From IMG/VR virus record IMGVR_UViG_2548876958_000014: a stretch of DNA of 41,963 bases. The stretch is one strand, 5' to 3'. Under the pieces are notes generated by a model. The model was not told the DNA's origin. It searched no databases and saw only the letters and a program-made list of their open reading frames with translations. The stretch is from a virus (Duplodnaviria; Heunggongvirae; Uroviricota; Caudoviricetes). The translations under genes were made by a program, and so were the position numbers. Positions 3,470-33,146 of the stretch are shown one piece after another (the stretch's first letter is position 1; every line of letters starts with the position of its first letter).

Positions 3470-3540
3470 TTATTATATTTTAGGCGTGGTGATTTTTTTT
3501 TGCCATGCCTATTTTATATTTATCATCACAATGATGTTGT

Positions 3541-3957
3541 TTATTTTTGTTTAAGTCTTCTAAGCTTCATGCATTCTAATGAGAATAATAATAGAGTTGT
3601 GCTGTATATAAAGCCAGAGTTAGTTAATAACTTTAAATTTAATGCTTCAGGATTTTCACTGAGAAAGTGAAAGGCATAAACTAAGTATACAGCTAAAGTA
3701 GCCGTTCCAATTGTTGGTCCAATATCGCCTTGATCATGAGGTTCAAGGTTTACATTGAACTTGAAGATTAGCCATTCAAATCCCCAAGTAAAAAAAACAA
3801 CTAATATCATGGCTGCGAATAATTTCGCGATGTTATCTGCTGATGGATTCATCAGAACAGATTGTTTCTGAAAAAATTCACAAAGTGAGAGTCCGAAAAA
3901 AATAAAAAAAAGTGGTCTGGAACTAAATTTTTCAAAAACTTTGAATAGGGTTTCCAT
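3541..3957 (-). CDS. Small hydrophobic (probable inner-membrane) protein
   Basis: 138-aa ORF with several hydrophobic stretches (LFFIFFGLSLCEF, AAMILVVFFTWGFEWLIF, TATLAVYLVYAFHF); AT-rich; convergent with upstream gene. Confidence 0.4.
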   Translation of the reverse strand: METLFKVFEKFSSRPLFFIFFGLSLCEFFQKQSVLMNPSADNIAKLFAAMILVVFFTWGFEWLIFKFNVNLEPHDQGDIGPTIGTATLAVYLVYAFHFLSENPEALNLKLLTNSGFIYSTTLLLFSLECMKLRRLKQK

Positions 3958-3995
3958 TTTCTTTACCTTCAGGATTATATTAGCTATTCTGATAC

Positions 3996-5225
3996 TTAGG
4001 CTACCAGAGCATTTGATCTTTGAGCTTGAACGTAATCACTCCACCATTGCATCAAACTCTGTCGCTCTATCAGATATTCTGCACGATTGTATGCTGCGAT
4101 AATTTCATCTTTTTTCGAGTGGGCAAGCGCTGCCTCAAGAACTTCAGCTCTGAATTTACCAGACTCCTCTGCCGCTGTTCGTGCAATAGAACGCATACCG
4201 TGAGCTACAAGCTCGCCTCCGAACCCCATTCGGATGATAGCTGCGTTGGCTGTTTGTTCATGCATATGATTAAGAGGCGCTTTTATGCTGGGGAAAACCC
4301 ATTCTCTATGCCCACTTATTGATTTCATTAATTCAAGGATGCGCAAAGCTTCTTTACTCAAAGGAACTTTGTGAAGCTTTTTCATTTTCATGAAATCAGC
4401 AGGAATGTTCCAAATGCTGTTGGTTGTATCAATATCAGACCACCTTGCGCGAACGGCTTCACCCGGACGAACCCATGTCAACAATTGCCATTCAATTAGC
4501 ATACGTGTTTCCAACCGGATTGACGCATTCGTCAAAGATTCCATAAACCTTGGCAATTCGCTTGGGGGAAGGGCAGGCATATTTTGCTTTTTTGGTTTAC
4601 TGAATCTTTGACCAAGGTTGTCAGCCGGGTTGAACTCAATAAGTTCTTCAGTAGCTGCCCACCGGAAGATTTCATTCAGACGTGAAATGATACGGCGTAG
4701 AGTTTCCAATACGCCTCGTTGCTCAATAGGATCAAGGTGTTGTTTTAAGAGCTTAGGTCGGATCTCATTGATAGGGACATTACCCAGACCGGGAAAGACA
4801 TTTCTCTCTAAGCTGCGCCAGATGTCTGCTGCATGGTCTTGTGAGATACCTGATGTCTTTACCTTCTCATCTAACCATTTCCGCGCTACGGCTTGGAGAG
4901 TGTGCTCAGTAGCACTCTTTAATGCCTTCGCCTTATCGTTGTTATGGATTTGGGGATCAACACCATTTGCCAGAAAGGAGAGATATTCATCACGTAAGGC
5001 TCTGGCTCTTGCAAGGGTAAGGTGAGGATATGTCCCAAGGCTCATTTTGGTTCTTTTCTTGCTCACTGGTACTGCATACCTGAAATACCAATTTTTCTTG
5101 CCTCCTTTCGCCAAAGGAGCGATTCGTAGAATCAGACCATCACCGTCAAACAAGTTGATTTCTTTATCGGCTGGCTTGGTGCTTTTGATTTCAGTGTCAG
5201 TGAGCTTCTTAGCGATTTTTGCCAT
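3996..5225 (-). CDS. Tyrosine recombinase / integrase, P4-IntA type
   Basis: ORF 3996..5267; likely start MAKIAKKLTDTEIKS at 5225; N-terminal arm-binding region typical of P4/CP4-57 IntA-like integrases; C-terminal catalytic region with HxxR-like AHGMRSIARTAA and Tyr in AYNRAEY; 165 bp from ssrA 3' repeat. Confidence 0.85.
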   Translation of the reverse strand: MAKIAKKLTDTEIKSTKPADKEINLFDGDGLILRIAPLAKGGKKNWYFRYAVPVSKKRTKMSLGTYPHLTLARARALRDEYLSFLANGVDPQIHNNDKAKALKSATEHTLQAVARKWLDEKVKTSGISQDHAADIWRSLERNVFPGLGNVPINEIRPKLLKQHLDPIEQRGVLETLRRIISRLNEIFRWAATEELIEFNPADNLGQRFSKPKKQNMPALPPSELPRFMESLTNASIRLETRMLIEWQLLTWVRPGEAVRARWSDIDTTNSIWNIPADFMKMKKLHKVPLSKEALRILELMKSISGHREWVFPSIKAPLNHMHEQTANAAIIRMGFGGELVAHGMRSIARTAAEESGKFRAEVLEAALAHSKKDEIIAAYNRAEYLIERQSLMQWWSDYVQAQRSNALVA

Positions 5226-5388
5226 TTTGGGACCCTCGGTTTTTGGACCCTTCTGAGTGGGTCCCATTCAGGGTGCCATAACTCGTAGTTCTCAGCAATT
5301 CTCACTGGACGACAATAGACGTAAAAAAGCCCGCAGAGCTTGTGCTGTGTGGGCTTAGTAGACTTCATTGAACTTCAAACAACTAAAA

Positions 5389-5430
5389 AGTGGTGCTGGC
5401 GGGAGTTGAACCCGCGTCCGAAATTCCTAC
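5389..5430. repeat. Direct repeat of the ssrA 3' end (att core; junction between prophage and neighbouring island)
   Basis: 5394..5430 is identical to 40912..40948 (37 bp); preceding TGGTG also matches but the ssrA GAG is missing, so it is a non-functional 3' fragment of tmRNA. Confidence 0.85.
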
Positions 5431-5624
5431 ATACCATTTTTATTATGGTAAAAACAGTAGATTATGTTTGAAAACAATGTGTTAGTGTTATTTTGTATTT
5501 GCTCGTCTTACGCGTTTTTAATGCTCTGCCGCCAAAGTGCCGCCATTACATCAAGTATCTAGAATAAAATTAGTTAATAAATTACAATTAATATGTTAAT
5601 TGTTCTTGCATTCATAAGTGGGAC

Positions 5625-7361
5625 GTGATGAAAGAAAAAAAATTCGTTAGTGAGCTTTTCCTTGAAAATGGGCAGTTTATTTTAGTCGGTTTGACAGGTC
5701 GAACTGGTTCTGGTTGCACAACAACAGCTAATATTCTTGAAAACGAAAAAACAGTCTTCCCTGATGTAAGTAAATTACAGGGGTTTTACAAGGGATTGGA
5801 TGTCCATCGTTATAATATAGTTAAAAAATTCGCAGAAAATCACTGGGAAAATTTTTACTCAATTAAGGTGAGTGACCTAATCTCAGCGTATCTTCTGATG
5901 TTAACAGTTGAGGAAGCTTCTGAATTCATTCTATCATCTAATAAATCTATCAGTAAAGAGCATTTAGATATTGTATTAACTTTTGGTGTATTCTCAGATA
6001 ATCTCATTTTGACAAGATTTAAAAATGTAATTGAGAATTTGCTTGATCATAATAGTGAATTGAAGCTTGATGAAAAAACGATTAATAAATTTATATCAAT
6101 TTTGAAGTTAGTTAGAAAATTTACTAAAGAATTCAAAGCTGAACTAAATGAGATAAACTCAAATTTATATGTTTCAGCCTATCAGTTAGCAGGTAAGTCA
6201 ATTAGACGTCGTGGGCGTATTGAAGTCGATTTTGAAGATAAAGAGTTTATGCCTAAATCTGTTTTTCATTTGCCGGAAACTATTAATAGGGTTATTAAAT
6301 TAATAAGAAAAAGCAAAAGAGATAACGCATTAATTGTCATAGATGCTATTAGAAATCCATATGAGGCAAAATTTTTTAAGGATAGATATTCTGCATTTCA
6401 TTTAATGTCAATAAATGCCCCAGATGAACATCGAACAAACTATTTGCGGAAACTACATAAGTTTTCAGAAAAGCAGATAGAGGAAATAGATTCTGTAGAG
6501 TCAGGTAAAGGTGATAACTCTTACAAACATCTCACCAATCCAAATGTAACTAAATGTATTGAACTATCAGATATACACATTTTTAACCCAAAAAATGAAT
6601 TTGATAATGACAATATTTTAAAAGCACAATTAGCGTGGTACATCGCACTGATGAAGCATCCTGGTCTGATAACACCTACTGCAATGGAAAGGGTTATGCA
6701 AGTTGCGTATACGGTAAAATTAAACTCTGGCTGTATATCTAGACAGGTGGGAGCTGTAGTAACTGATGGTGATAATTCAATAAAATCAGTTGGTTGGAAT
6801 GATGTTGCCAACGGTCAGATTCCTTGCTCTATGAGATCTCTAGATGGCCTAATGAACGATTTTGATGAAAAAACGTACAGTCATTATGAGAGAAATAATA
6901 GTTCTTTCAGAATTAAAGCTAATGAGAAACTCTTAAATTTTAGGGCGATAGATAAAACTGGTGATATTTATAGAGGCAGGAACTTATCTTATTGTTTTAA
7001 AGATATACATAATGATCTTGATAAAGAGAAAAAAGGTAATCAAGTTCATACACGTGCATTACATGCTGAGGAAAACGCATTTTTGCAACTTGCAAAATAT
7101 GGTGGTATTGGCGTTCTGGGGGGGAAGTTGTATACAACTGCCAGTCCCTGTGAGTTGTGTGCGAAAAAAGCTTATCAGTTAGGTATATCTGAAATTGTAT
7201 TTATTGATCCCTACCCAGGTATAGCTCAAGACCATATTATTAATATAGGTAGTAAGCCACCAAAGTTAATACAATTTAGAGGCGCAATTGGGAAGTCATA
7301 TCACCGACTTTATGAGCAAATTATCCCGATAAAAGATGAGTTAGAATATCTCCTTGAGTAG
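5625..7361 (+). CDS. Fusion protein: N-terminal P-loop nucleotide-kinase-like domain + C-terminal cytidine/dCMP deaminase zinc-binding domain (resembles anti-phage dCTP deaminase architecture)
   Basis: N-terminal GLTGRTGSGCTTTANIL (CoaE/dNK-like P-loop with Cys where Lys is expected); C-terminal HAEENAF and SPCELCAKKA (H-A-E ... P-C-x-x-C deaminase zinc motifs); AT-rich; sits between att repeat and P2-type int. Confidence 0.6.
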   Translation: MMKEKKFVSELFLENGQFILVGLTGRTGSGCTTTANILENEKTVFPDVSKLQGFYKGLDVHRYNIVKKFAENHWENFYSIKVSDLISAYLLMLTVEEASEFILSSNKSISKEHLDIVLTFGVFSDNLILTRFKNVIENLLDHNSELKLDEKTINKFISILKLVRKFTKEFKAELNEINSNLYVSAYQLAGKSIRRRGRIEVDFEDKEFMPKSVFHLPETINRVIKLIRKSKRDNALIVIDAIRNPYEAKFFKDRYSAFHLMSINAPDEHRTNYLRKLHKFSEKQIEEIDSVESGKGDNSYKHLTNPNVTKCIELSDIHIFNPKNEFDNDNILKAQLAWYIALMKHPGLITPTAMERVMQVAYTVKLNSGCISRQVGAVVTDGDNSIKSVGWNDVANGQIPCSMRSLDGLMNDFDEKTYSHYERNNSSFRIKANEKLLNFRAIDKTGDIYRGRNLSYCFKDIHNDLDKEKKGNQVHTRALHAEENAFLQLAKYGGIGVLGGKLYTTASPCELCAKKAYQLGISEIVFIDPYPGIAQDHIINIGSKPPKLIQFRGAIGKSYHRLYEQIIPIKDELEYLLE

Positions 7362-7741
7362 AAATATTATACTCATCCTTCCTGAGGTAAGCTTCAAGAT
7401 GATCAATAAATATTGATCATCTTGAAAGTTAATTGCAGAGTCAAACTAGTAGTCAGACTGAAGCTTCGATAAAAAATGTTTTTGTTTTTTTCATTTTCTA
7501 ATGACTGTTTTTTATTGGTTTCTTTTTAATGTTGCAATGCTATGCTTTTCTACTATTTTTGAATGTGGCATCTTTGATGTTTTTATACAACAAAGATGAG
7601 GGCTTATAGGTTTTTTTGTGATGTAAAAATTATCTTATTCTATAAATAAAACCTAAACTCAGTCTGAAGAGTTAAATGAGAATGGATAACCTGCTGAATA
7701 TTATATTTGTAAATAGTTTGAGTTTGTTTTCATAAGTTACT

Positions 7742-8758
7742 CTATCTTAAGTTGCATAAAGGGTTTTTAGTTACCGCATCTTCAAGGTGATCGGGCGAAA
7801 AGTGGGCGTAAATCATCGTCATTTTTATATCGGCATGGCCCAGAATATCGCGCAGCACCAGTATGTTTCCGCCATTCATCATAAAATGGCTGGCGAATGT
7901 ATGACGTAGCACGTGAGTGCATTGGCCCTCTGGCAGCTCGATGCCAGCTCGCTTTACTGCTCGTTCAAAGGCTTTTCTGCACGGGGTGAATAGCTTCCCT
8001 CTGTTCTTGGGGAGTTCGTCATACAGATCTTGAGATATCGGCACGGTGCGGTTTTTCTTACCCTTCGTCTTGGTATAAGTGATGCGGTATTTAGATAACT
8101 GATGGCCCTGCAGGTTTTCAGCTTCACTCCAGCGTGCGCCGGTGGCCAGGCATATTTTTGCAATCAAAAGCAGACTGGGGTTTTGAGAATCAGCGCAGGC
8201 ATCTAGCAGACGTTTAATTTCTTCCGAGGTCAGGAACGCCAGTTCCCCCTCAGCGATTTTAAATGTTGGCAGCCCGGCGAGAGGATTTGGTGCTGACCAG
8301 TGGCCTAGTTTTTTCAATGTGCCGAAAACCGATGATAGGTTACGTTGCTCAAGATTCACCGTGCGTGGTTTTACTGGCGACATTAGTGTGCCGTCTTCGT
8401 TACGAACGTCACCTTTTAACCGTGCTTCGCGGTATTTCGTAAAGTCACCGGCTGTCAGTTCTGAGGCGATGGGGTCGCCTAGACCATTACAGATAATTCT
8501 AAGTTTCGCCATGAGGCGCTTGGGGTCTGCGAGTGTCTGACCATACAGGGAATACCAAAGCTCAATTAATTCTGATAGGCGTCGCCGATCATCCTTTTCA
8601 CCCAACCACGGTTTTTTATTCACTTCTTCCATTGTGAAGCTTTCAAAAGCAATGGCTTCGCCTTTCGTAGCAAATTGCTTACGCACGCGCTTACCATTGC
8701 GTCCATTGGGATAGCACTCACACAACCATTTTCCGTTCGGCTGTTTTCTGATGGTCAT
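7742..8758 (-). CDS. int: P2/186-type tyrosine integrase
   Basis: 338 aa, matching the ~337-aa P2/186 integrases; conserved stretches CLATGARWSEAE, KYRITYTKTKGKKNRTVPIS, VLRHTFASHFMMNGGNILVL, MTMIYAHF; followed by repressor gene in same orientation. Confidence 0.9.
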   Translation of the reverse strand: MTIRKQPNGKWLCECYPNGRNGKRVRKQFATKGEAIAFESFTMEEVNKKPWLGEKDDRRRLSELIELWYSLYGQTLADPKRLMAKLRIICNGLGDPIASELTAGDFTKYREARLKGDVRNEDGTLMSPVKPRTVNLEQRNLSSVFGTLKKLGHWSAPNPLAGLPTFKIAEGELAFLTSEEIKRLLDACADSQNPSLLLIAKICLATGARWSEAENLQGHQLSKYRITYTKTKGKKNRTVPISQDLYDELPKNRGKLFTPCRKAFERAVKRAGIELPEGQCTHVLRHTFASHFMMNGGNILVLRDILGHADIKMTMIYAHFSPDHLEDAVTKNPLCNLR

Positions 8759-8759
8759 A

Positions 8760-9392
8760 TCAAAGGCTCTTAATGATTTTCAGTGCGCGGCCTACTACCT
8801 CAATGTCATCTAGGCCACACTCAAACGATGAATCATCCTGATGCACTACTAATTTGTTTCCCGGAAGTCGAGTCAATTTAACAATGCTTTTTATCCCGTC
8901 AATATCGACTAACCACATACCATTTACTGGTGGTGTTTGGTTGCGATCTATTAAATAAGAATCACCAGAAGTAGTCACCAGCAGTAGGTTGCTTGAGTCT
9001 GAGGGGAGTATGCTGCTATCAATGATTGCTTTTCCAGCATCGACCAATAAACCACCTTTGAGAGTCGCCTTGTCAATTTCAGGAGATACTAGTTCAGAAA
9101 GAGGTACAACCTTGCTGGAGTTCACGGAGTTGATATTTTTTTTAGGTTCAATGTTTGGACCTGGCTCCCCCTGTCCGGTGGTTAGCCACAGTAAAGAAAC
9201 TCCTGTTTCCAAGGCGCACTGAATCACCCACTCTGCAGGAAAACTATCTCTTAAGTATCTGTTTGCCATGGTGCTTTTTGATGCGCCTAAGTGATCGCAA
9301 AGTTGCTGTCTGGACTTGAAATCATAGGCTGCCATTAGTCTATGGATAGCCTCTCTTCCCCCTGTATTCTCTCCAACCTTTATCTGTATCAT
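8760..9392 (-). CDS. cI: Phage CI-type immunity repressor (186-like)
   Basis: Sits between int and a divergent early operon; N-terminal HTH-like region (SRQQLCDHLGASKSTMANRYLR) and C-terminal domain as in 186 CI; start may be internal. Confidence 0.7.
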   Translation of the reverse strand: MIQIKVGENTGGREAIHRLMAAYDFKSRQQLCDHLGASKSTMANRYLRDSFPAEWVIQCALETGVSLLWLTTGQGEPGPNIEPKKNINSVNSSKVVPLSELVSPEIDKATLKGGLLVDAGKAIIDSSILPSDSSNLLLVTTSGDSYLIDRNQTPPVNGMWLVDIDGIKSIVKLTRLPGNKLVVHQDDSSFECGLDDIEVVGRALKIIKSL

Positions 9393-9404
9393 TTTTTAAT
9401 CCTG

Positions 9405-9456
9405 TTGACGTATCAAATATTGGATCGTAGTATCTCGATGTATCAAATATTGAATC
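9405..9456 (+). promoter_or_regulatory. Early lytic promoter (pR-like) overlapped by two direct copies of a candidate CI operator
   Basis: TTGACG (9405..9410), 17-bp spacer, TAGTAT (9428..9433); 17-bp repeat GTATCAAATATTG(G/A)ATC at 9410..9426 and 9440..9456, each an imperfect palindrome. Confidence 0.45.
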
Positions 9457-9511
9457 AAGTAAAACGAGATAAAACGACGTAAACCAAACCTTAATCGGGA
9501 GATACTGCACT

Positions 9512-9754
9512 ATGAGCACTGATATTTCAATTCGTGTACCAAAAGAGATGGCTACGCCTGCAGAGTTCGCGGAATGGGAAGGTATCTCCCGCGGCTCTGT
9601 GTATCAAAAAATTCATCATGGTCAGCTTGCTAAATACATGGTCAAGAAAGAAAAAAACAAAGGCCGCGTAAGCCTGCGTTATTTAATGTACAAAACCGAT
9701 CAGGTCCGTGAATCCCTCGGTCATTCCAACTTCCGCGTCATTGTTGGTAAGTAA
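9512..9754 (+). CDS. Apl/Cox-like excisionase and lytic-switch regulator
   Basis: 80-aa first gene of the operon divergent from cI; HTH-like AEFAEWEGISRGSVYQKIHHGQL; position as in 186 apl / P2 cox. Confidence 0.6.
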   Translation: MSTDISIRVPKEMATPAEFAEWEGISRGSVYQKIHHGQLAKYMVKKEKNKGRVSLRYLMYKTDQVRESLGHSNFRVIVGK

Positions 9755-11337: not shown

Positions 11338-12191
11338 GCACCATCCTGAAATGGGCGGGAAATAAAACCGCCATTATGTCCGAACTGAAAAAACACCTTC
11401 CTGCTGGCCCGCGACTGGTTGAACCTTTCGCGGGTTCCTGTGCTGTGATGATGGAGACGGATTACCCCAGCTATCTTGTTGCGGATATTAATCCTGATTT
11501 AATCAACCTCTATAAAAAGGTTGCTGCTGATTGTGAGGCATTTATATCTCGTGCCAGAGCTTTATTTGAGGAAGCAAACAGGGAGGTGGCTTATTACAAC
11601 ATAAGGCAGGAGTTTAATTACTCCACTGAAATTACTGATTTCATGAAAGCGGTATATTTTCTGTATCTCAATCGTCATGGTTACCGTGGGTTATGTCGCT
11701 ATAACAAGAGCGGGTATTTCAACATTCCCTACGGTAATTATAAAAATCCGTATTTCCCTGAAAAAGAAATTCGCGCATTTGCAGAGAAAGCCCAGCGGGC
11801 AACGTTTATCTGCGCCAGCTTTGATGAAACGCTGGCGATGTTGAAGGCGGGGGATGTGGTGTATTGCGATCCGCCGTATGACGGCACGTTTTCCGGTTAT
11901 CACACTGACGGCTTCACTGAAGATGACCAGTATCACCTGGCATCCGTTCTTGAACATCGGTCATCAGAAGGACATCCGGTCATTGTTTCTAACAGTGACA
12001 CATCCCTGATCCGTTCGCTGTATCGCAATTTTACTCACCACTACATCAAGGCAAAACGCAGCATCGGCGTAGCAGCTGGTGAGAGTAAATCTGCAACAGA
12101 AATCATCGCTGTTTCTGGGGCGCGCTGCTGGGTGGGATTTGATCCTTCGCGTGGCGTGGATAGTTCTGCCGTGTACGGAGTGCGTGCATGA
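11334..12191 (+). CDS. DNA N6-adenine methyltransferase (Dam-like, orphan)
   Basis: ATG 11334; N-terminal KWAGNK and EPFAGS (SAM-binding) and catalytic DPPY motif; no cognate restriction gene seen. Confidence 0.75.
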
Positions 12192-14602
12192 GCCATGCTG
12201 ATATGAACAACTGCAGCGGCTTTAACGAGGCCGCCGCAGCATTCTCATGGAACAGCCCGAAAAAGGCTATTAACCCTTATCTGGACCCGGCGGAAGTTGC
12301 GCCGGTTTCTGCGCTTTCAAACCTGATCACTCTGTACGCTGCCGATAACGAGCAGGAACAACTGCGCCGTGAGGCACTGAGTGATCAGGTCTGGGAGCGT
12401 TATTTCTTTAATGAATCCCGTGATCCTGTCCAGCGCGAAATGGAGCAGGATAAGCTCATTAGCCGGGCAAAGCTGGCGCATGAGCAGCAGCGTTTTAATC
12501 CAGACATGGTCATTCTGGCAGACGTCAACGCCCAGCCTTCCCATATCAGCAAGCCGCTGATGCAACGTATTGAATACTTCAGCAGCCTGGGCAGGCCAAA
12601 GGCTTATTCCCGCTATTTGCGTGAGACGATTAAGCCATGTCTGGAACGACTGGAGCATGTACGCGAGAGTCAGCTATCCACTTCTTTTCGCTTTATGGCA
12701 AGCCATGAAGGGCTGGACGGCCTGCTGATCCTGCCTGAAATGAGTCAGGATCAGGTGAAACGCCTGTCCACCCTTGTTGCTGCGCATATGAGCATGTGTC
12801 TTGATGCAGCTTGTGGCGATTTGTATGCCACCGATGACGTTAAGCCAGAAGAAATCCGCAAAACATGGGAAAAGGTGGCAGCGGAAACCCTGCGTCTGGA
12901 TGTTATTCCGCCTGCGTTTGAGCAACTCCGTCGGAAAAGAAACCGCCGTAAACCCGTGCCCTATGAACTCATTCCGGGTTCGCTGGCGCGTATGTTGTGT
13001 GCCGACTGGTGGTATCGGAAATTATGGAAGATGCGTTGCGAATGGCGGGAAGAGCAGTTGCGTGCTGTCTGCCTGGTCAGCAAAAAAGCATCCCCCTATG
13101 TCAGCTATGAAGCCGTGATGCATAAACGTGAGCAGCGCCGTAAGTCGCTGGAGTTTTTTCGTTCTCATGAACTGGTGAACGAAGACGGCGACACGCTGGA
13201 TATGGAATATGTGGTAAACGCCAGCAGCAGCAACCCTGCGCATCGCCGCAATGAGATGATGGCCTGTGTTAAAGGTCTGGAGCTTATCGCGGAAATGCGC
13301 GGTGACTGCGCCGTTTTCTACACCATCACCTGTCCGTCACGTTTCCATTCCACGCTAAATAACGGCAGGCCCAACCCAACCTGGACAAATGCGACGGTAA
13401 GACAAAGCAGTGATTATCTGGTCGGCATGTTTGCTGCATTTCGTAAGGCGATGCACAAAGCCGGATTGCGGTGGTATGGCGTGCGGGTGGCTGAGCCGCA
13501 TCATGACGGTACAGTTCACTGGCACCTGTTGTGTTTTATGCGCAAAAAAGACCGCCGCGCCATCACTGCATTACTGCGTAAGTTTGCCATCCGTGAAGAC
13601 CGCGAGGAGCTGGGCAATAACACAGGGCCGCGCTTTAAGTCTGAGTTGATTAACCCGCGCAAAGGAACGCCGACAAGCTACATCGCGAAATACATTAGTA
13701 AGAACATTGACGGGCGTGGTCTGGCTGGCGAGATCAGCAAGGAAACGGGTAAATCCCTGCGTGATAACGCTGAATACGTTAATGCCTGGGCGTCTCTGCA
13801 TCGTGTTCAGCAATTCCGCTTCTTTGGCATTCCGGGGCGTCAGGCTTACCGTGAACTGCGATTGCTGGCTGGTCAGGCGGCAAGGCAACAGGGGGACAAA
13901 AAAGCAGGTGCGCCGGTACTGGATAACCCGCGCCTTGATGCAATCCTGGCTGCTGCTGATGCTGGTTGTTTTGCCACCTACATCATGAAGCAGGGCGGCG
14001 TACTGGTTCCCCGCAAATATCACCTGATCAGAACCGCTTATGAAATCAACGAAGAGCCGACCGCCTATGGCGATCACGGCATTCGTATTTATGGCATCTG
14101 GTCACCCATTGCAGAGGGCAAGATCTGCACTCATGCAGTGAAGTGGAAAATAGTTCGTAAGGCCGTTGACGTTCAGGAGGCGGCAGCCGACCAGGGCGCT
14201 TGCGCCCCTTGGACTCGTGGCAATAACTGTCCCCTTGCTGAAAATTTGAACCAACAAGGGAAAGACAAATTAGCTGATGGGGACTCCAGAACGGATATTA
14301 CCTGTATGAATGACAAGGAGTTGCACGATTACCTGCACAGTATGAGCAAAAAAGAGCGCCGGGAACTGGCTGCAAGGTTACGCCAGGTGAAACCGAAACG
14401 GCGTAAAGACTACAAACAGCGAATTACAGACCATCAGCGACTGCAGCTCGTGTATGAGCTGAGGTCCAGAGGATTTGATGGCAGCGAGAAAGAGGTCGAT
14501 TTACTCCTTCGCGGCGGCAGTATTCCGTCAGGAGCAGGCCTGCGTATCTTCTATCGGAACCAGCGTTTGCAGGAAGATGACAAGTGGCGGAACCTGTATT
14601 AA
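12188..14602 (+). CDS. A: Replication initiation protein gpA (rolling-circle HUH endonuclease)
   Basis: 804 aa; HUH-like [10 protein letters not shown] and Tyr-rich YIAKYISKN catalytic region; P2/186 gene A position. Confidence 0.85.
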
Positions 14603-15188: not shown

Positions 15189-15322
15189 GAAACGTTGCTG
15201 GCGTCTGAACTTGCTTCTGGCGTCAGCAAGGTTGAACAACGAGCCCTTGCGAGGCATTAGCTCTGTAGTGCATGTCTATGCCGCATGAGATCGCATGATC
15301 GTTTGAGGATCGTTTTTGCTAA

Positions 15323-15347
15323 GGCCCGCCAGAACTGGCGGGCTTTT
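15323..15347 (+). terminator. Rho-independent terminator after dinI-like operon
   Basis: GGCCCGCCAG / CTGGCGGGC stem with AA loop followed by TTTT. Confidence 0.6.
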
Positions 15348-15392
15348 GCGTAGATCATGCAGGTGCATGAAAACCACTACATAAAGCGGGCA

Positions 15393-15411
15393 GGCGTGGC
15401 GGGGATACGAG
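15393..15411. other. Candidate cos (cohesive end) site
   Basis: GGCGTGGCGGGGATACGAG resembles my recollection of the 19-nt P2/186 cohesive ends (GGCG(A/T)GGCGGGGAAAGCA-); recollection and position both uncertain. Confidence 0.25.
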
Positions 15412-15497
15412 CGCGCGCTTAGCCATGAATCTGTGGACTTGATGGTGAAGCTAAGGTAATTTGTATCAAAAAAAGCAGTACAATAGGGATATATAGA

Positions 15498-16577
15498 GTG
15501 GCGTTATCAGATGCGTTAATTACAGTAAATCAAGCAGAACGGGGCGGTGAAAACGCGTTGAGAGGCTTTTCATATCAAGCCTCTTGGGGGATAAATTATT
15601 TACTTGAAAAACAAAAAGAAAAGGAGAAATATTTATTTCTATTTGAATATCATGACGATATTCTTGTATTGAATTCATCTGTTTCTCCGACTAGTGCTGA
15701 GTTTATCCAAGTTAAAACAAAAAAAGATGGTAAATGGACACTCGCAGCAATAGTGAACGCAACAAAAGCTAAACCTAAATCATTTGTTGCAAAACTATAT
15801 GACCATTTCTATCAATTCGTTGGTCACGAAATTTATATGGTTCTGTTATCGAATGCTGGATTCGATTTCTTAAATGATAATAACGAAAAAGGTAGTGATC
15901 TTAATAATGAGCATAAGGAAATTATAATTAGTAAGGTTCAAGAGCAGCTAAATACTAAAAAAGAAGTTCCTCTTGATAAAATAAAATTTAAAACATCTGA
16001 TCTTAGTTTGTTAGATCCTAACTCACATTTATACGGGAAAGTTGCAGTTTTTTTGAATTCTTACTTTGGGGATGATCATGGTATTAATTCAACAGCATTC
16101 ACTAAATTATTAATCAATAAGTGTAATGAGAAGGTTAGTGTTGCTTCTAGTGATATCAAAACTTTTGAAGATTTAGTACTAAAGAAAGGTATATCTTCAG
16201 AATTTGTAACTGATTTATTATCTGGACTCATTGCAAGCATAAAAATAACGCCAAAATGGGAACAGGTTTGTATGTTGCTTGGTACTTTCTCAGATCCTTA
16301 TGAGGGGATTAAATTACAATCAGTTTTTACACGCATATCAATAAAAGTGCTCAATGTCAATTCAATATACTATCTTTATTTTCTGGAATTTCAATCGGCT
16401 CTAAAGAGTATAGAGCATTATCGTGAGATACCTGTTCGAGACCTCTTCTTTACACTCGAAAAAACAATTGCAGCGGGGGACGGGGATTTCTCTTTATTAA
16501 ATCAAGAAGAGAAATTTATGATTGCTATATATGCAATTATAAAGTTGACTTTTGAGGATGTTTCTTATGAAGAATAA
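15498..16577 (+). CDS. Candidate defence effector: nuclease-like protein (possible PD-(D/E)xK / Cap4-like fold; LmuA-like)
   Basis: 359 aa, GTG start; N-terminal GFSYQ and acidic cluster EYHDDILV followed by EFIQVKTKK (D...(E/Q)xK-like); AT-rich; stop overlaps downstream start. Confidence 0.5.
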   Translation: MALSDALITVNQAERGGENALRGFSYQASWGINYLLEKQKEKEKYLFLFEYHDDILVLNSSVSPTSAEFIQVKTKKDGKWTLAAIVNATKAKPKSFVAKLYDHFYQFVGHEIYMVLLSNAGFDFLNDNNEKGSDLNNEHKEIIISKVQEQLNTKKEVPLDKIKFKTSDLSLLDPNSHLYGKVAVFLNSYFGDDHGINSTAFTKLLINKCNEKVSVASSDIKTFEDLVLKKGISSEFVTDLLSGLIASIKITPKWEQVCMLLGTFSDPYEGIKLQSVFTRISIKVLNVNSIYYLYFLEFQSALKSIEHYREIPVRDLFFTLEKTIAAGDGDFSLLNQEEKFMIAIYAIIKLTFEDVSYEE

Positions 16578-18225
16578 CGTTAAATTTAAAAATATAAAAA
16601 TACTCTCATTAAGAGACAGAAAAGCTTTTTCTTATGAGTTTTCAGAAGGGGTTAACTTCATATATGGTACAAATGATGTTGGTAAATCAAGCCTGATTAA
16701 AAGTCTTTATTACACATTAGGTGGAGATTTAAGGCTTGATGATGCTTGGAAATCAGATGATATAGTTACACTGGTGGAAATTAATAACGGGGAAAGTGAT
16801 TTTATTTTTTTGCGTTATAAAAAGATTATTGGTGTCTTTGATTTGAAGAATGATGATCTAGTCGTGTATAACACGATTTCATCATTAGCATCTCGTGTTT
16901 CAAATATATTTGGTTTTAAACTGGAATTACATAATAAATATACGGGTGCTACGACTCAGGCAAACCCTGCTTGTTTGTTTGCCCCATTCTTTATTGATCA
17001 GGATGAAGGATGGAAAGCGGTGATAAATTCTTTCGAAAACATGAGTATGTACTCAGAATGGCAAAAAAACATTCTTTACTATCACTCTGGAATTAAGCCA
17101 AAGGAATATTACACAGTTCAAGGGAAAATCAAAGAAGTTAAAGTTAAAATTTCAGAGTTAGATGGTTTTGTTAAGGTTCTAAAAAGAAGCAAAAGTAAGA
17201 TTGATGAATCTTTTGGTGTGGTTTTATTTGATGTTGATTTGGATTTTTATAAATCAAAGTTAGAACGTATATTAAATGAATATTCTAATTTGAATTTAGT
17301 TCAGACAGAATATAGATTGAATCTTTTGAGGTTATATTCTAGGAAGAATTTCCTTGAGAGTGAACTCAAAGAGATAACTGCGATTATTGATAATGAATTT
17401 GAGATTTCGAATTTTCGAGATGATAATGTTGCTTATTCAGTAAATGAATATAATTATATAAACCATAGAGATGAAATGCTCAAAAACATTGCTGTTCTTG
17501 CAGATGAGAAAAGCAAGATTGAGGAAAATATTCCTAAATTGAATCAAAAGCTAGAAGAGTCAAGGGCTGCTTCAGAGGCGTTGCAGGCGCTGATTTTAGA
17601 AACTCAATCGGAAATAACGCTTCATGATGTTATTAAATCTGCTGCATACCATGAAATTGAATCTACTTTTGTTTCACAGTTAGATGAGTTATTCGTTGAG
17701 ATTGGTCGAAAAGAAGGCGAGTTGACAGAATTACAAGAAGAATTAGAAGTATACAATGATAAGAAAAGAACTGTTAAAATAAATGACTGTTTCAAAGAGT
17801 ATTTCGCTAAAGCTCTTAAAGAGCTTGGTGTCGAAAATACAAAGGTAGGTGGCCTTAGTAGTTATAATAATATTACTAAGGGTAAGACTGGTAGTCGAGG
17901 TCCTCGAGGTATATTTGCATTTCACTACGCGCTACTTAGTGTTATGAAAAGCAACTCTTCAGTTGAGAATATGCCTATAGTAATAGACTCTCCAAAGCAA
18001 CAAGATTTGGATCCAGAGCATACGCATAAGCTTATAAAACTATGCTTGGATGGGTTTTCCCTTACAAATCAGATTATTATTGGCACTGTTGGTTATGAGA
18101 GTTTCATGGATGGTTTTAATAGCATCAAACTTGAAAATAAATATCATCTTTTAAATGATGAACATTATGATAATGTTTATTCTCAATTAATGCCATTGTT
18201 TGAACGGGTGATACTTTCAAGATGA
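16552..18225 (+). CDS. SMC/Rad50-like ABC ATPase with central coiled coil (LmuB-like)
   Basis: Walker A GTNDVGKSS; long heptad-rich middle; C-terminal PIVIDSPKQQDLD (Walker B / D-loop-like); possible starts 16552/16558/16567 overlap upstream gene. Confidence 0.55.
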   Translation: MRMFLMKNNVKFKNIKILSLRDRKAFSYEFSEGVNFIYGTNDVGKSSLIKSLYYTLGGDLRLDDAWKSDDIVTLVEINNGESDFIFLRYKKIIGVFDLKNDDLVVYNTISSLASRVSNIFGFKLELHNKYTGATTQANPACLFAPFFIDQDEGWKAVINSFENMSMYSEWQKNILYYHSGIKPKEYYTVQGKIKEVKVKISELDGFVKVLKRSKSKIDESFGVVLFDVDLDFYKSKLERILNEYSNLNLVQTEYRLNLLRLYSRKNFLESELKEITAIIDNEFEISNFRDDNVAYSVNEYNYINHRDEMLKNIAVLADEKSKIEENIPKLNQKLEESRAASEALQALILETQSEITLHDVIKSAAYHEIESTFVSQLDELFVEIGRKEGELTELQEELEVYNDKKRTVKINDCFKEYFAKALKELGVENTKVGGLSSYNNITKGKTGSRGPRGIFAFHYALLSVMKSNSSVENMPIVIDSPKQQDLDPEHTHKLIKLCLDGFSLTNQIIIGTVGYESFMDGFNSIKLENKYHLLNDEHYDNVYSQLMPLFERVILSR

Positions 18226-18231
18226 AAATAT

Positions 18232-18249
18232 GGCCTCAGAAATGAGGCC
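18232..18249. terminator. Hairpin between convergent genes (likely bidirectional terminator)
   Basis: GGCCTCA-GAAA-TGAGGCC perfect 7-bp stem with GNRA-like loop between ATPase gene stop (18225) and portal gene stop (18266). Confidence 0.5.
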
Positions 18250-18265
18250 GACTAAATTATCTTAA

Positions 18266-19300
18266 TTAAATTTTTAGTTCGTAGGTTGAAAAATTTATAA
18301 TTCTATCGTTTAACCAATTATTTATTTCTAGAAACATTTTTTGTAGAGGCAGTAGCTCATTTCGTACAAATACTGTGCTTGCCTTTTCGATATCCCCAAA
18401 CCCCCCGACATTATTAGGCATTATCCCCATCATTTGTGGCGGCACACGATGCGCCGCCATCATGTCGTCCCGGCTCACGTTCTTGATATTCAGGAACTCA
18501 TCCTTCGCCGCCACTTCTGACAACGGGATAATCTGAAGCCCGTCCTTTTTACCGTTAGGCGAGTACATAAACAGGTTACGGAAGTTACCAGGACCTTTGG
18601 CGCTTTTCATCGCATTGCGGAGGTTGTTCACATCCTCCTGGTTCTGCGCAGCATCGGTCATGTACATGATGAAGCCTGCATGACTGCCGTTAATGTAATA
18701 CTTGCGGCGGAACAGCGTGGCGGACTCGTTGAGCAGAGCTGACGGAATGGCAGAAAGATAACCGGGCAGGCCGTAGATCTCCTGGTTGATGTCCGGTTCC
18801 ATCAGATGAAAAATGCTGCCTTTCGTGAACTGATACGGCTGGGTTGTCATACCGTATTGCACAAACCAGTAGGTATCCAGGTCTAACCCGCGTCGGGTGT
18901 ATTTTGCCAGCGCAGGCTCAAGGGCGATAACTTCACCGAATCGGTTCGTGCGTTTCTCCAGGTAGGCGTTACCAAATACCAGATAGTCCTGCACAAAACG
19001 CGAAAAAGCCTGCTGGCTGAGCAGCGGATGAGGGATATAGGTACTGGTCAGAATGTTGCACTTTACTGCAATCGGGGAACTGTGATGCACGGCAGCGCGG
19101 AAGGTGCGCGCCAGTCCGTCAAAGCTGACGGGCGGCTCATACCAACGGTCCATCTGTACGCATTCCACATAGTCCAGCAGTTCTCGGCGATCCAGAACAG
19201 GAACGGGATCGCCGAAGCTGAATGCTTCGGCTGTAGTCTGGCTTTTAAGCTGGATCTGTTTCGTCGCCGCAGCGCGGTTCTTCTTACTCTTTCCCATCAA
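18266..19300 (-). CDS. Q: Portal protein gpQ
   Basis: 344 aa (the length of P2 Q); precedes terminase ATPase gene on same strand, as in P2. Confidence 0.85.
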   Translation of the reverse strand: MMGKSKKNRAAATKQIQLKSQTTAEAFSFGDPVPVLDRRELLDYVECVQMDRWYEPPVSFDGLARTFRAAVHHSSPIAVKCNILTSTYIPHPLLSQQAFSRFVQDYLVFGNAYLEKRTNRFGEVIALEPALAKYTRRGLDLDTYWFVQYGMTTQPYQFTKGSIFHLMEPDINQEIYGLPGYLSAIPSALLNESATLFRRKYYINGSHAGFIMYMTDAAQNQEDVNNLRNAMKSAKGPGNFRNLFMYSPNGKKDGLQIIPLSEVAAKDEFLNIKNVSRDDMMAAHRVPPQMMGIMPNNVGGFGDIEKASTVFVRNELLPLQKMFLEINNWLNDRIINFSTYELKI

Positions 19301-29508: not shown

Positions 29509-31019
29509 GCACAAAATTTTATACCCTGCTGACGGATATTGGCGCGGCGAAACTTGCCAGCGCCGCCGCGCTCGGTGTGCCGCTAAAAATTACCCATATG
29601 GCGGTCGGCGATGGTGGCGGAGTATTGCCAACGCCAGACGCAAAGCAGACTGCACTGGTAAATGAGAAACGCCGGGCTGCGCTGAATATGCTCTATATCG
29701 ACCCGCAGAACAGCAGCCAGATTATTGCCGAACAGGTGATCCCTGAAAACGAGGGCGGTTGGTGGATTCGTGAAGTGGGCCTGTTTGATGAGTCCGGGGC
29801 ATTGATTGCCGTGGGCAACTGCCCGGAAAGCTATAAGCCGCAACTGGCTGAAGGCAGCGGGCGCACTCAGACCGTGCGCATGGTGCTGATTACCAGCAGC
29901 ACGGACAATATCACCCTGAAAATCGACCCTGCTGTAGTGCTGGCAACCCGCAAGTATGTGGATGACAAGGCACTGGAGCTGAAGGTGTACGCGGATGATC
30001 AGATGGCAAAACATCTTGCCGCACCGGACCCGCATTCACAGTATGCACCCAAAGAAAGTCCGACGTTTACCGGAACCCCCAAAGCGCCAACGCCAGCAGC
30101 AGGGAATAACACCACGCAGATTGCGACCACCGCGTTTGTTCAGGCGGCTCTGACGGCTCTTATTAATGGTGCGCCAGCCACGCTGGACACGCTGAAAGAA
30201 ATAGCCGCAGCCATTAACAATGATCCGAAATTCAGTACCACCATTAACAATGCACTGGCACTGAAAGCGCCGCTATCGAGTCCGGCACTCACCGGAACGC
30301 CAACAGCCCCCACGGCGGCGCAGTCGGTCAACAATACACAGATTGCCACTACGGCTTTTGTGAAATCGGCGATTGCGGCAATGGTGGGTTCTGCACCTGC
30401 GGCACTGGATACACTGAACGAACTGGCAGCGGCGCTGGGGAATGATCCGAACTTTGCCACGACAATGCTGAATGCGCTGGCAGGTAAACAACCGCTGGAC
30501 AATACGCTGACTAATTTGAGTGGAAAGGATGTAGCTGGTCTTCTCACATACCTTGGTTTGGGAGAAGGCTCTGCATTACCTGTTGGTGTGCCTGTTCCGT
30601 GGCCTTCAGTCACACCGCCAACAGGCTGGCTGAAATGCAACGGTGCGGCTTTTTCTGCTGAAGAATACCCGGAACTGGCAAAGGCTTACCCGACAAATAA
30701 ATTGCCTGATTTACGTGGTGAGTTTATGCGTGGCTGGGATGATGGAAGAGGCATTGATAGTGGTAGGGGGATTCTCACTGCGCAATCTCATGGTATGCCG
30801 TCTATTTCAGGAGTGTTTAATGGTCTTTTTGCTGTTAAACAAACAAATGGTTTAGGTGGTGTTTCTGTAGCAAAAAGTACAAATGCTGAAACTTTATCTA
30901 CTTCATCTGGATCGGGTTCCGTGTTTGATTACACGTTTAATGTCAGCGGTTCGACTCCGGTATCACCAGAACTTCGTCCGCGTAATATTGCATTTAACTA
31001 TATCGTGAGGGCCGCATAA
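29505..31019 (+). CDS. H: Tail fibre protein gpH (constant N-terminus, invertible C-terminus)
   Basis: 504 aa; internal ~70-aa tandem repeats (TGTP...NNTQIATTAFV...LDTL...NDP.F); inversion crossover site at codons ~346-354. Confidence 0.8.
   Translation: MSTKFYTLLTDIGAAKLASAAALGVPLKITHMAVGDGGGVLPTPDAKQTALVNEKRRAALNMLYIDPQNSSQIIAEQVIPENEGGWWIREVGLFDESGALIAVGNCPESYKPQLAEGSGRTQTVRMVLITSSTDNITLKIDPAVVLATRKYVDDKALELKVYADDQMAKHLAAPDPHSQYAPKESPTFTGTPKAPTPAAGNNTTQIATTAFVQAALTALINGAPATLDTLKEIAAAINNDPKFSTTINNALALKAPLSSPALTGTPTAPTAAQSVNNTQIATTAFVKSAIAAMVGSAPAALDTLNELAAALGNDPNFATTMLNALAGKQPLDNTLTNLSGKDVAGLLTYLGLGEGSALPVGVPVPWPSVTPPTGWLKCNGAAFSAEEYPELAKAYPTNKLPDLRGEFMRGWDDGRGIDSGRGILTAQSHGMPSISGVFNGLFAVKQTNGLGGVSVAKSTNAETLSTSSGSGSVFDYTFNVSGSTPVSPELRPRNIAFNYIVRAA
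30541..30566. repeat. Left inversion crossover site (hix/gix-like) inside gpH
   Basis: TTCTCACATACCTTGGTTTGGGAGAA; near-perfect inverted repeat of 32357..32382; resembles Hin/Gin sites (TT-TC-AAACC-TGGTTT-GA-AA). Confidence 0.65.
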
Positions 31020-33004: not shown

Positions 33005-33146
33005 ATCAGCATTATTTTGATTTTTCCTGCAAGCGGACAAATACCGTTATTTTGTGTGAATAACGGTACAACTGCGCTTAGCTGTTTGTCAGGCACAATC
33101 ACTTCAACATAGGGCGAAGCCTAATCCAATCAGGAGGTTCGCCACT

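What the first reader, a model, noticed from the sequence alone, without database searches (positions are those of the whole stretch)
15498..18225. AT-rich two-gene cassette (nuclease-like + SMC-like ATPase) inserted between the dinI terminator and the portal gene: candidate Lamassu-type defence system
Two overlapping genes with clearly lower GC than the phage backbone sit at the DNA-replication/packaging junction, the position occupied by tin/old in P2 and known as a variable defence locus. Gene 1 (359 aa) has GFSYQ and an acidic cluster followed by EFIQVK, a possible PD-(D/E)xK or Cap4-like nuclease core. Gene 2 (557 aa) has Walker A GTNDVGKSS, a long coiled coil and a C-terminal IVIDSP Walker-B-like motif, i.e. 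an SMC/Rad50-like head-coil-head ATPase. Order and sizes match the LmuA + LmuB layout, but the effector N-terminal domain is not confidently placed in any family from sequence alone, so it may be a divergent or undescribed variant.
Basis: partly seen in the sequence, partly recalled or inferred. Interest (0 to 1): 0.8.

Follow-up and report, generated by a model that had tools for sequence, protein, structure and literature searches.

The report
Type I Lamassu defence cassette, P2-like prophage
This is an ordinary, already catalogued two-gene Lamassu anti-phage system (a Cap4-type nuclease, LmuA, plus an SMC/Rad50-like ATPase, LmuB) carried as a self-contained low-GC cassette in the known defence hotspot next to the cos site of a P2-like E. 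coli prophage.

Summary
Two overlapping + strand genes (lmuA 15498-16577; lmuB 16567-18225) at 32% GC sit between DinI and the portal gene of a 51-56% GC P2-like prophage.

Both proteins match dedicated PADLOC Lamassu models end to end (LmuA 4e-143, LmuB 6e-253). LmuA residues 15-212 are a Pfam Cap4_nuclease domain (1.4e-33). Both AlphaFold models have the solved type I LmuAB complex (PDB 9ux7) as best fold match.

There is no LmuC gene here or in relatives from Vibrio to Elizabethkingia, so this is type I Lamassu.

- lmuB starts at ATG 16567, giving 552 aa and Walker A K40.
- The conserved nuclease residues are E50, D54, Q71 and K73; E68 is not conserved.
- The cassette lies between cos (15393-15411) and Q, on the opposite side of cos from P2 tin/old.

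One mild peculiarity: this LmuB belongs to a small subclade (5 of 150 family representatives) that lost the CxxC zinc hook through a deletion at the coiled-coil apex.

The module carries its own upstream block and terminator. It also occurs in lambdoid prophages and an integrase island, and it is under purifying selection. The same arrangement is listed, unnamed, in Rousset et al. 2022 Table S5A. Already known; low interest.

The parts
15321..15347 (+). Rho-independent terminator downstream of the DinI-like gene. It belongs to the phage backbone, not the cassette.
   Evidence: 11-bp GC-rich stem plus U-run, dG -24.6 kcal/mol, z -5.35. It lies in the left flank shared with sibling prophages.
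15393..15411 (.). cos cohesive-end sequence of the P2-like phage (GGCGTGGCGGGGATACGAG).
   Evidence: Aligns to P2 cosL/cosR GGCGAGGCGGGGAAAGCAC, including the flanks. The identical sequence is annotated as the cos site at the start of the phage Cartapus record.
15427..18377 (.). Variable module relative to a sibling prophage that carries retron Ec78 in this slot. It includes the last ~37 codons of portal gene Q.
   Evidence: blastn homology to L002 ends at 15426 and resumes at 18378. The portal C-termini diverge while the rest is 93-95% identical. The portal tail 18266-18377 is 26% GC.
15434..15461 (+). Conserved upstream block that travels with the module (TGGACT ... GC-AA-GTAAT-T). It is a candidate sigma-70 promoter and is unverified.
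   Evidence: Invariant in E. coli, Salmonella, Providencia and Cronobacter copies despite different surrounding elements. The consensus promoter scan did not flag it.
15484..15489 (+). Shine-Dalgarno (TAGGGA) for lmuA.
   Evidence: Conserved in all four contexts, 8 nt before the conserved GTG start.
15498..16577 (+). lmuA, 359 aa: N-terminal Cap4-type PD-(D/E)xK nuclease (aa 15-212, nt 15540-16133) plus an all-helical C-terminal domain (aa 213-359). Predicted active-site residues are E50, D54, Q71, K73 (K73 codon 15714-15716).
   Evidence: PADLOC LmuA PDLC00243 4e-143, full length. Pfam PF14130 1.4e-33. Invariant residues. AF2 model pLDDT 86. Best Foldseek match is 9ux7_C, the type I LmuA. dN/dS 0.12-0.19.
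16567..18225 (+). lmuB, 552 aa: SMC/Rad50-like ABC ATPase. N-head aa 1-175, kinked antiparallel coiled coil aa 179-419 with a hook-less apex at ~277-287, C-head aa 420-552. Walker A GTNDVGKS is at 16666-16689 (K40). The deviant Walker B PIVIDS is at 17974-17991 (D474-S475).
   Evidence: PADLOC LmuB PDLC00255 6e-253. The family profile matches PDB 9ux7_A at 4e-42, full length. AF2 model pLDDT 84. Foldseek 9ux7_A 2.3e-23. Invariant motifs. No CxxC. dN/dS 0.07-0.12.
18232..18249 (.). GC-rich hairpin (GGCCUCA-gaaa-UGAGGCC) between the convergent lmuB and Q genes. It is a likely terminator, with the better U-tract on the - strand.
   Evidence: Found by the terminator scan. dG -13.7 and -13.1 kcal/mol, z -4.7 and -4.2. 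Conserved with the module, with one compensatory C-G to U-A pair change in Providencia and a different hairpin in Cronobacter.

Best explanation
The cassette is a type I (LmuC-less) Lamassu anti-phage system with a Cap4-type nuclease effector. It is carried as a self-contained moron (own upstream block, two translationally coupled genes, own terminator) in the cos-proximal defence hotspot of a P2-like prophage. The mechanism is inferred by homology to the solved Bacillus type I LmuAB complex. Two LmuB protomers pair through their coiled coils and hold one LmuA monomer, inactive, by its helical C-terminal domain near the coiled-coil apex. An LmuB ATPase head binds dsDNA ends or replication intermediates made by an infecting phage, and ATP binding and hydrolysis (Walker A K40) tune this step. 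LmuA is then released and tetramerises through its C-terminal domain. Two Cap4 nuclease domains form an active site (D54, Q71, K73) that degrades DNA without sequence specificity, which kills or arrests the infected cell. What is shown here: family membership, domain architecture, motif conservation, absence of LmuC, mobility, and purifying selection. What is inferred: stoichiometry, DNA-end sensing, tetramer activation, and abortive infection. This LmuB lacks the zinc hook seen in the Bacillus protein, so how its two protomers are held together at the apex is unknown.
For: Full-length PADLOC LmuA (4e-143) and LmuB (6e-253) matches. Pfam Cap4_nuclease 1.4e-33. The LmuB family profile hits the type I LmuB 9ux7_A at 4e-42 over residues 8-540. 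Foldseek top hits are 9ux7_C for LmuA (7.9e-7) and 9ux7_A for LmuB (2.3e-23), ahead of type II LmuA/LmuB, Cap4, HamA, Rad50 and SMC. The AF2 LmuB topology is head, kinked coiled coil, head, with kinks at 217-224 and 346-352; the kinks reported for BcLmuB are at 210-225 and 351-357. Invariant Walker A, a Walker B of the form hhhhDS as reported for short Lamassu, and the invariant nuclease residues D54, Q71, K73. No ORF above 60 aa besides the two genes. The two-gene layout is conserved in V. cholerae, a mine-drainage MAG, Elizabethkingia, Salmonella, Cronobacter and Providencia. dN/dS is 0.07-0.19. Hotspot behaviour: the cassette is in 11 of 5426 E. coli genomes, its flanks are in 1277, and a sibling carries retron Ec78 in the same slot. 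The mechanism is taken from 10.1101/2025.06.23.660979 and PMC12663957.
Against: No experiment exists on this cassette or, as far as my literature searches went, on any member of the hook-less two-gene subclade. Sequence identity to the solved type I proteins is low: ~20% for LmuB and ~15% for LmuA, and LmuA was not detectable in the PDB by sequence profile. The zinc hook that joins the BcLmuB protomers is deleted here, so the apex architecture, and with it how LmuA is sequestered, may differ. The promoter is only a conserved block, not a consensus match.
Confidence: 0.87

Rival explanations
1. It is a type II (LmuACB/DdmABC-like) Lamassu whose LmuC is unrecognised, fused, or encoded elsewhere in the prophage.
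For: Type II is the dominant Lamassu architecture. The hook-less state resembles VcLmuB, which works with LmuC.
Against: lmuA and lmuB overlap by 11 nt, and no other ORF above 60 aa exists in 15189-18265. The same two genes move alone between P2-like prophages, a lambdoid prophage, an integrase island and chromosomal contexts. The nearest solved relative of both proteins is the type I complex, not a type II one. Protein lengths match type I, so there is no room for a fused LmuC.
Confidence: 0.03
2. It is a Rad50/SbcC-like recombination or repair module, or a prophage-addiction or anti-plasmid module, that serves the phage itself rather than defending against other phages.
For: The LmuB head resembles Rad50/SbcC. 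Lamassu is proposed to derive from SbcCD. The related DdmABC also acts against plasmids. A sequestered nuclease could in principle stabilise the element that carries it.
Against: The partner is a Cap4-type effector nuclease with the Lamassu C-terminal domain, not an Mre11/SbcD phosphoesterase. The cassette is absent from more than 99% of related prophages, so it is not core phage biology. It occupies a slot filled by other defence systems in siblings.
Confidence: 0.06
3. It is an inactive, decaying remnant of a Lamassu system.
For: One E. coli strain (L73) carries a frameshifted lmuA. The zinc hook is lost.
Against: Both frames are intact here. All catalytic and ATPase motifs are invariant. 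dN/dS is 0.07-0.19 against copies with dS up to ~2.7. The hook-less clade spans many genera with conserved length, so the deletion is old and tolerated.
Confidence: 0.04

Closest known systems
Type I Lamassu LmuAB of Bacillus cellulasensis NIO-1130 (PDB 9ux7/9ux8; Doron 2018 system; clade S of Haudiquet et al.)
   Same: Two-gene lmuA-lmuB operon without LmuC. Cap4/DUF4297 nuclease plus a helical C-terminal domain. Short LmuB (552 vs 562 aa) with a kinked coiled coil and a deviant Walker B. It is the best sequence-profile match for LmuB and the best fold match for both proteins.
   Different: Only ~15-20% identity. The BcLmuB zinc hook (CQYC 285-288) is absent here because of a ~15-20 aa deletion at the apex. 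The host is a Gram-negative and the carrier is a prophage.
Type II Lamassu: V. cholerae DdmABC/LmuACB and Salmonella enterica LmuACB (PDB 9nxx, 9nyg, 9uxh, 9hqu, 9hqx)
   Same: Cap4-type LmuA, short hook-less LmuB (Vc), and the published logic of DNA-end sensing followed by LmuA tetramer activation. These are the second tier of fold matches.
   Different: They require LmuC, which is absent here. Their LmuB is ~630-660 aa. By sequence profile only the Walker A region matches (9hqu, E 0.004).
Rad50-Mre11 / SbcCD
   Same: ABC ATPase head split by an antiparallel coiled coil, and DNA-end recognition. The N-terminal head is detectable by sequence.
   Different: Much shorter coiled coil, no zinc hook here, and no Mre11/SbcD partner. 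The nuclease is an unrelated PD-(D/E)xK Cap4-type effector.
CBASS Cap4 and Hachiman HamA nuclease domains
   Same: The same nuclease fold and the same E...DD...QxK-type motif.
   Different: Cap4 is switched on by a SAVED domain that binds cyclic oligonucleotides, and HamA works with the HamB helicase. Here the nuclease is controlled by an SMC-like partner through the LmuA C-terminal domain.
P2 old/tin and other cargo of the P2 gpA-gpQ cos-proximal hotspot (Rousset et al. 2022)
   Same: The same hotspot interval and the same role as variable anti-phage cargo. The arrangement 'DinI + DUF4297 + hypothetical (WP_024244550)' is listed in their Table S5A.
   Different: old/tin sit between orf91 and cosR, at the right end of virion DNA, and are transcribed leftward. 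This cassette sits between cos and Q, at the left end, and is transcribed rightward. The proteins are unrelated.

Membership tests
Lamassu (any type) | LmuB: SMC/Rad50-like ABC ATPase with head, antiparallel coiled coil, head | tested here: met
   PADLOC LmuB 6e-253, full length. AF2 topology. Foldseek to LmuB structures, then Rad50/SMC.
Lamassu (any type) | Walker A Gx4GK[ST] and the short-Lamassu deviant Walker B hhhhD[Q/S/T/E] | tested here: met
   GTNDVGKS (K40) and PIVIDS (D474-S475), invariant across 38 homologues. The motif definitions come from PMC12663957.
Lamassu (any type) | LmuA: N-terminal effector domain plus the conserved helical C-terminal domain that docks on LmuB | tested here: met
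   Cap4_nuclease at aa 15-212. The PADLOC LmuA model covers 1-356. The helical C-terminal domain is in the AF2 model. The Foldseek alignment to 9ux7_C spans 352 columns. Physical docking was not tested.
Lamassu (any type) | lmuA and lmuB adjacent and co-oriented in one operon | tested here: met
   11-nt overlap here, and identical in the Salmonella, Providencia and Cronobacter copies.
Lamassu (any type) | Confers anti-phage (abortive infection) protection | not testable with these tools
   Needs plaque assays. No published test of this subclade was found.
Type I Lamassu (LmuAB, clade S) | No LmuC gene | tested here: met
   No ORF above 60 aa other than lmuA and lmuB in 15189-18265. The same holds in six relatives' loci.
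Type I Lamassu (LmuAB, clade S) | LmuB and LmuA closest to the validated type I proteins rather than to type II | tested here: met
   9ux7_A at 4e-42 by profile, against 0.004 for type II 9hqu. 9ux7 chains rank first in both fold searches.
Type I Lamassu (LmuAB, clade S) | CxxC zinc hook at the coiled-coil apex, as in BcLmuB. This is a feature of the solved exemplar and not a stated requirement of the family. | tested here: not met
   There is no CxxC anywhere in the protein. The apex is deleted relative to hook-bearing relatives. 145 of 150 family representatives have the hook and 5 lack it.
Type I Lamassu (LmuAB, clade S) | LmuB2:LmuA1 resting complex, DNA-end binding, LmuA tetramer on activation | not testable with these tools
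   Known for BcLmuAB only.
Type II Lamassu (LmuACB / DdmABC) | LmuC subunit encoded in the operon | tested here: not met
Hachiman (HamAB) | HamA nuclease paired with the HamB helicase | tested here: not met
   There is only a weak HamA-model hit on the nuclease core (1e-8 to 5e-11). The partner is an SMC-like ATPase, not a helicase.
Gabija / PARIS / OLD-type ABC ATPase systems | AAA_15/21 ATPase with a TOPRIM domain or partner | tested here: not met
   The GajA and AriA similarities are confined to the Walker A region. No TOPRIM is present.

The most novel reading that the evidence does not exclude
The cassette represents a 'minimal' Lamassu that has neither LmuC nor a zinc hook, the two elements that hold the LmuB pair together in the solved type II and type I complexes. 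If so, LmuB dimerisation and LmuA sequestration at the apex must use a different architecture, for example the LmuA C-terminal domain itself bridging the two coiled-coil tips. A second open point is that a DNA-end sensor is carried right next to the cos end of a cos phage. This may work only because P2-type rolling-circle replication and packaging from circles expose few free ends.
Probability: 0.2. Interest if true: 0.4.

Novelty: already known. Interest (0 to 1): 0.18.

Why it matters
It matters little beyond correct annotation. RefSeq calls these genes 'dsDNA nuclease domain-containing protein' and 'hypothetical protein/AAA family ATPase', and they should be labelled LmuA and LmuB (type I Lamassu). 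The locus illustrates how a complete defence module (upstream block, two genes, terminator) is swapped at the cos-Q junction of P2-like phages and is shared with lambdoid prophages and integrative islands across Enterobacterales. The hook-less, LmuC-less subclade could be a compact subject for asking which elements of the Lamassu scaffold are really required.

Tried and rejected
- Single-sequence phmmer against the PDB found nothing for LmuA and only Rad50 N-termini for LmuB. A family profile was needed to reach 9ux7.
- Even as a profile, LmuA reached only the Hachiman AbpA/HamA nuclease motif. Its link to type I LmuA rests on the fold search.
- NCBIfam gave no useful family.
- The consensus promoter scan found no site upstream of lmuA. 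The candidate promoter rests only on cross-context conservation.
- Supplementary tables of the PNAS Lamassu paper are not held, so I could not check whether its clade S listing includes this system or records its hook status.
- Two literature calls failed because 'P2' is under the three-character minimum for a term.
- I considered and rejected type II Lamassu, Hachiman, Gabija/PARIS/OLD, a Rad50-type phage repair module and a decayed remnant. The reasons are under the rival explanations and the membership test.
- The idea that the cassette alone was recently exchanged between E. coli and Klebsiella is only weakly supported. The whole Klebsiella phage is 95-98% identical to this prophage and the module region 99-100%, so spread of the whole phage is equally plausible.
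Full report
**1. Observation**

The window is 100% identical over the queried segment (15200-18300) to E. coli VG888-46E9 (NZ_CP128581), and its annotation shows a P2-like prophage. Its gene order is integrase, CI, early genes, Dam-like methylase, replication endonuclease gpA (12188-14602), a 62-aa ORF and a DinI-like gene. The two genes of the finding follow, and then the convergent portal (Q) and terminase (P) genes.

The two + strand ORFs are present as described: 15498-16577 (GTG, 359 aa) and 16552-18225 (TTG, 557 aa). The cassette (15427-18265) is 32% GC, against 51% on the left flank and 56% on the right. The 'dinI terminator' is real: an 11-bp GC stem plus U-run at 15321-15347, dG -24.6 kcal/mol, z -5.35.

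One correction applies. lmuB almost certainly starts at ATG 16567, giving 552 aa. This start has a GAGGA Shine-Dalgarno 7 nt upstream, is the RefSeq start, is the invariant M1 of 38 aligned homologues, and is where the PADLOC profile begins. The overlap with lmuA is therefore 11 nt, and the Walker A lysine is K40.

**2. What the proteins are**

ORF1 matches PADLOC LmuA model PDLC00243 over its whole length (E 4e-143). Its residues 15-212 match Pfam PF14130 Cap4_nuclease (1.4e-33). ORF2 matches PADLOC LmuB model PDLC00255 over its whole length (E 6e-253). That model is 550 positions long, which is the size of this subfamily.

An alignment of 38 LmuB homologues (25-89% identity to the window protein) has these invariant features:
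- Walker A: G34, N36, G39, K40, S41.
- A DQD motif at 144-146.
- A GS...PR block at 442-447.
- Walker B: P-x-V-I-D474-S475-P. This is the hhhhD[Q/S/T/E] form reported for short Lamassu.

The LmuA alignment has E14, G17, Q27, H52, D54, Q71, V72, K73 and T74 invariant, and E50 and D53 nearly so. The nuclease core is therefore E50/D54...Q71-x-K73.

**3. Relation to solved Lamassu complexes**

Single-sequence searches of the PDB were uninformative. The LmuB family profile, however, matches 'Lamassu protein LmuB' 9ux7_A/9ux8 (562 aa), the LmuB chain of the 'LmuAB-DNA complex' entry, at E 4e-42 over residues 8-540. Its match to a type II LmuB (9hqu) is confined to Walker A at E 0.004.

The AlphaFold2 models are confident: LmuA pLDDT 86 and LmuB pLDDT 84.
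- Foldseek ranks 9ux7_C (LmuA of the type I complex) first for LmuA (E 7.9e-7, TM 0.51/0.59, 352 columns). Hachiman HamA, VcLmuA, Cap4 and SeLmuA follow.
- Foldseek ranks 9ux7_A first for LmuB (2.3e-23). Type II LmuBs, B. subtilis YydD, Rad50/SbcC and SMC heads follow.
- The LmuB model has heads at 1-175 and 420-552 and a coiled coil with kinks at 217-224 and 346-352. The kinks described for BcLmuB are at 210-225 and 351-357.

**4. No LmuC, so type I**

Between the DinI stop and the portal stop there is no other ORF above 60 aa. In every relative I examined, a ~360-380 aa Cap4_nuclease gene directly precedes lmuB and no LmuC-sized gene sits between them. The relatives were V. cholerae (43% identity), a mine-drainage MAG (29%), Elizabethkingia (25-26%), Salmonella (89%), Providencia (86%) and Cronobacter (72%). 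This is the architecture called type I Lamassu, or clade S.

**5. A small peculiarity: the zinc hook is lost**

BcLmuB joins its two protomers through a CQYC zinc hook at the coiled-coil tip. The window LmuB has three cysteines and no CxxC. Relatives at 29% identity or less carry CPTC at about residue 294, and all relatives at 36% identity or more lack it. The alignment shows a deletion of about 15-20 residues exactly at the apex.

In an exhaustive profile search of 1.84 billion representative proteins, the family has 813 members at E<=1e-30. Of the best 150 representatives, 145 have the central CxxC and 5 do not; three of those five are hook-less relatives already in the alignment. Hook-less short LmuBs are already known; VcLmuB is one, and short LmuB carries zero to two hooks. 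In Vibrio, however, LmuC sits between the coiled coils. A system with neither element is the one respect in which this cassette departs from both solved exemplars. PADLOC already has a length-matched model for it, so it is not unrecognised.

**6. Locus anatomy and mobility**

*cos position.* The 19-nt cos cohesive end lies at 15393-15411. It aligns to P2 cosL/cosR, and the identical sequence is annotated as cos at the start of the phage Cartapus record. In P2 itself, tin and old lie between orf91 and cosR, and only a terminator separates cosL from Q. Here the cargo lies between cos and Q. It is therefore inside the published gpA-gpQ 'cos-proximal' hotspot but on the other side of cos from tin/old. 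Cartapus has a DUF4145 gene, weakly similar to PD-T7-4, in the same cos-Q slot.

*Boundaries.* Against a sibling prophage that carries retron Ec78 (RT, PtuA and PtuB) in this slot, homology ends at 15426 and resumes at 18378. The swapped segment therefore includes the last ~37 portal codons, which are 26% GC and divergent among siblings.

*Distribution.* The cassette occurs in 11 of 5426 complete E. coli genomes, while its flanks occur in 1277. It also occurs at 99.4% identity in 12 near-identical Klebsiella phage records.

*Other carriers.* Closely related copies of the module sit in a Salmonella P2-like prophage in the same slot, in a Cronobacter lambdoid prophage between the lambda-P-like replication gene and the Q antiterminator, and in a Providencia AlpA/integrase island. 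They share the same gene lengths, the GTG start and the 11-nt overlap.

*Signals carried with the module.* About 65-80 nt upstream of the start are conserved across these contexts: TGGACT, GC-AA-GTAAT-T and the TAGGGA Shine-Dalgarno. So is the downstream hairpin at 18232-18249, which has one compensatory pair change in Providencia. The module is therefore a self-contained moron.

*Selection.* Both genes are under purifying selection, with dN/dS 0.07-0.19 at dS 0.4-2.7.

**7. Mechanism**

The mechanism is inferred from the type I and type II structural work. An LmuB dimer sequesters one inactive LmuA monomer through the LmuA C-terminal domain near the coiled-coil tip. An LmuB head binds dsDNA ends, or transient structures at phage replication origins in vivo. 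ATP binding and hydrolysis modulate this step. LmuA is then released and tetramerises, two Cap4 domains form the active site, and DNA is degraded non-specifically, which aborts the infection.

For this cassette, the components and all catalytic motifs are shown. The stoichiometry, the trigger and the outcome are inferred. How the hook-less apex dimerises is open.

**8. Prior knowledge and verdict**

The hotspot is published (Rousset et al. 2022, PMC9122126). Their Table S5A lists 'hypothetical + DinI + DUF4297 + hypothetical' ending in WP_024244550, which is the LmuB accession of this window's source genome; the entry is unnamed there. PADLOC has dedicated models, and type I Lamassu has solved structures and a published mechanism.

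Its only mildly unusual aspects are the lost zinc hook in an LmuC-less system and the exact cos-Q placement. Interest is low.

Noticed in passing
window 5628-7361 (+): An AT-rich 577-aa gene between the ypjA autotransporter gene and the prophage integrase is a dCTP deaminase defence gene (PADLOC dCTPase PDLC02373, E 1.6e-145; RefSeq 'anti-phage dCTP deaminase'). It is a second defence gene, at the integrase end of the prophage. I did not determine whether it lies inside or outside attL.
   Followed up: partly
window 30541-30567 / 32356-32382, recombinase 32470-33036: 27-nt inverted repeats (TTCTCCCAAACC..., like Gin/Cin crossover sites) bracket the tail-fibre C-terminus and tail-fibre assembly genes, next to a serine recombinase. 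This is an invertible host-range segment at the position of P2 Z/fun.
   Followed up: partly
window 15393-15411: The phage cos cohesive-end sequence (GGCGTGGCGGGGATACGAG) lies between DinI and the cassette. In virion DNA the Lamassu module would therefore be the first ~2.8 kb at the left end, with the lmuA start 87 nt from the last base of the 19-nt cohesive-end sequence.
   Followed up: yes
window 18266-18377 (-): The last ~37 codons of portal gene Q are AT-rich (26% GC) and diverge between sibling prophages with different cargo. The recombination boundary of the hotspot therefore lies inside Q, not after it.
   Followed up: yes
L003 (E. coli L73, NZ_CP033378) 2612-4700: This strain carries the same cassette with an extra 239-aa HNH endonuclease gene inserted upstream (no PADLOC family) and a frameshift that splits lmuA into two ORFs. 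It is a decaying copy.
   Followed up: partly
L013 (Salmonella) 2988-3665: The Salmonella P2-like prophage has an additional 225-aa gene with no Pfam or PADLOC family between DinI and lmuA. Its function is unknown and it may be further cargo.
   Followed up: partly
L014 (Cronobacter turicensis) 3929-6659; L015 (Providencia alcalifaciens) 3932-6659: The same lmuAB module is carried in the replication-to-Q-antiterminator region of a lambdoid prophage and in an AlpA/integrase/Fic island. One defence moron is thus shared among unrelated mobile elements.
   Followed up: partly
L002 (E. coli N10) 6420-9690: A sibling P2-like prophage carries a retron Ec78-type system (RT, AAA ATPase PtuA, HNH PtuB) in the identical cos-Q slot.
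   Followed up: no
PDB 9a6c_A (fold search for LmuB): The B. subtilis YydD-YydB integrative model ranks third among structural matches to this LmuB, ahead of several type II LmuB chains. This suggests YydD is a Lamassu-like SMC ATPase.
   Followed up: no
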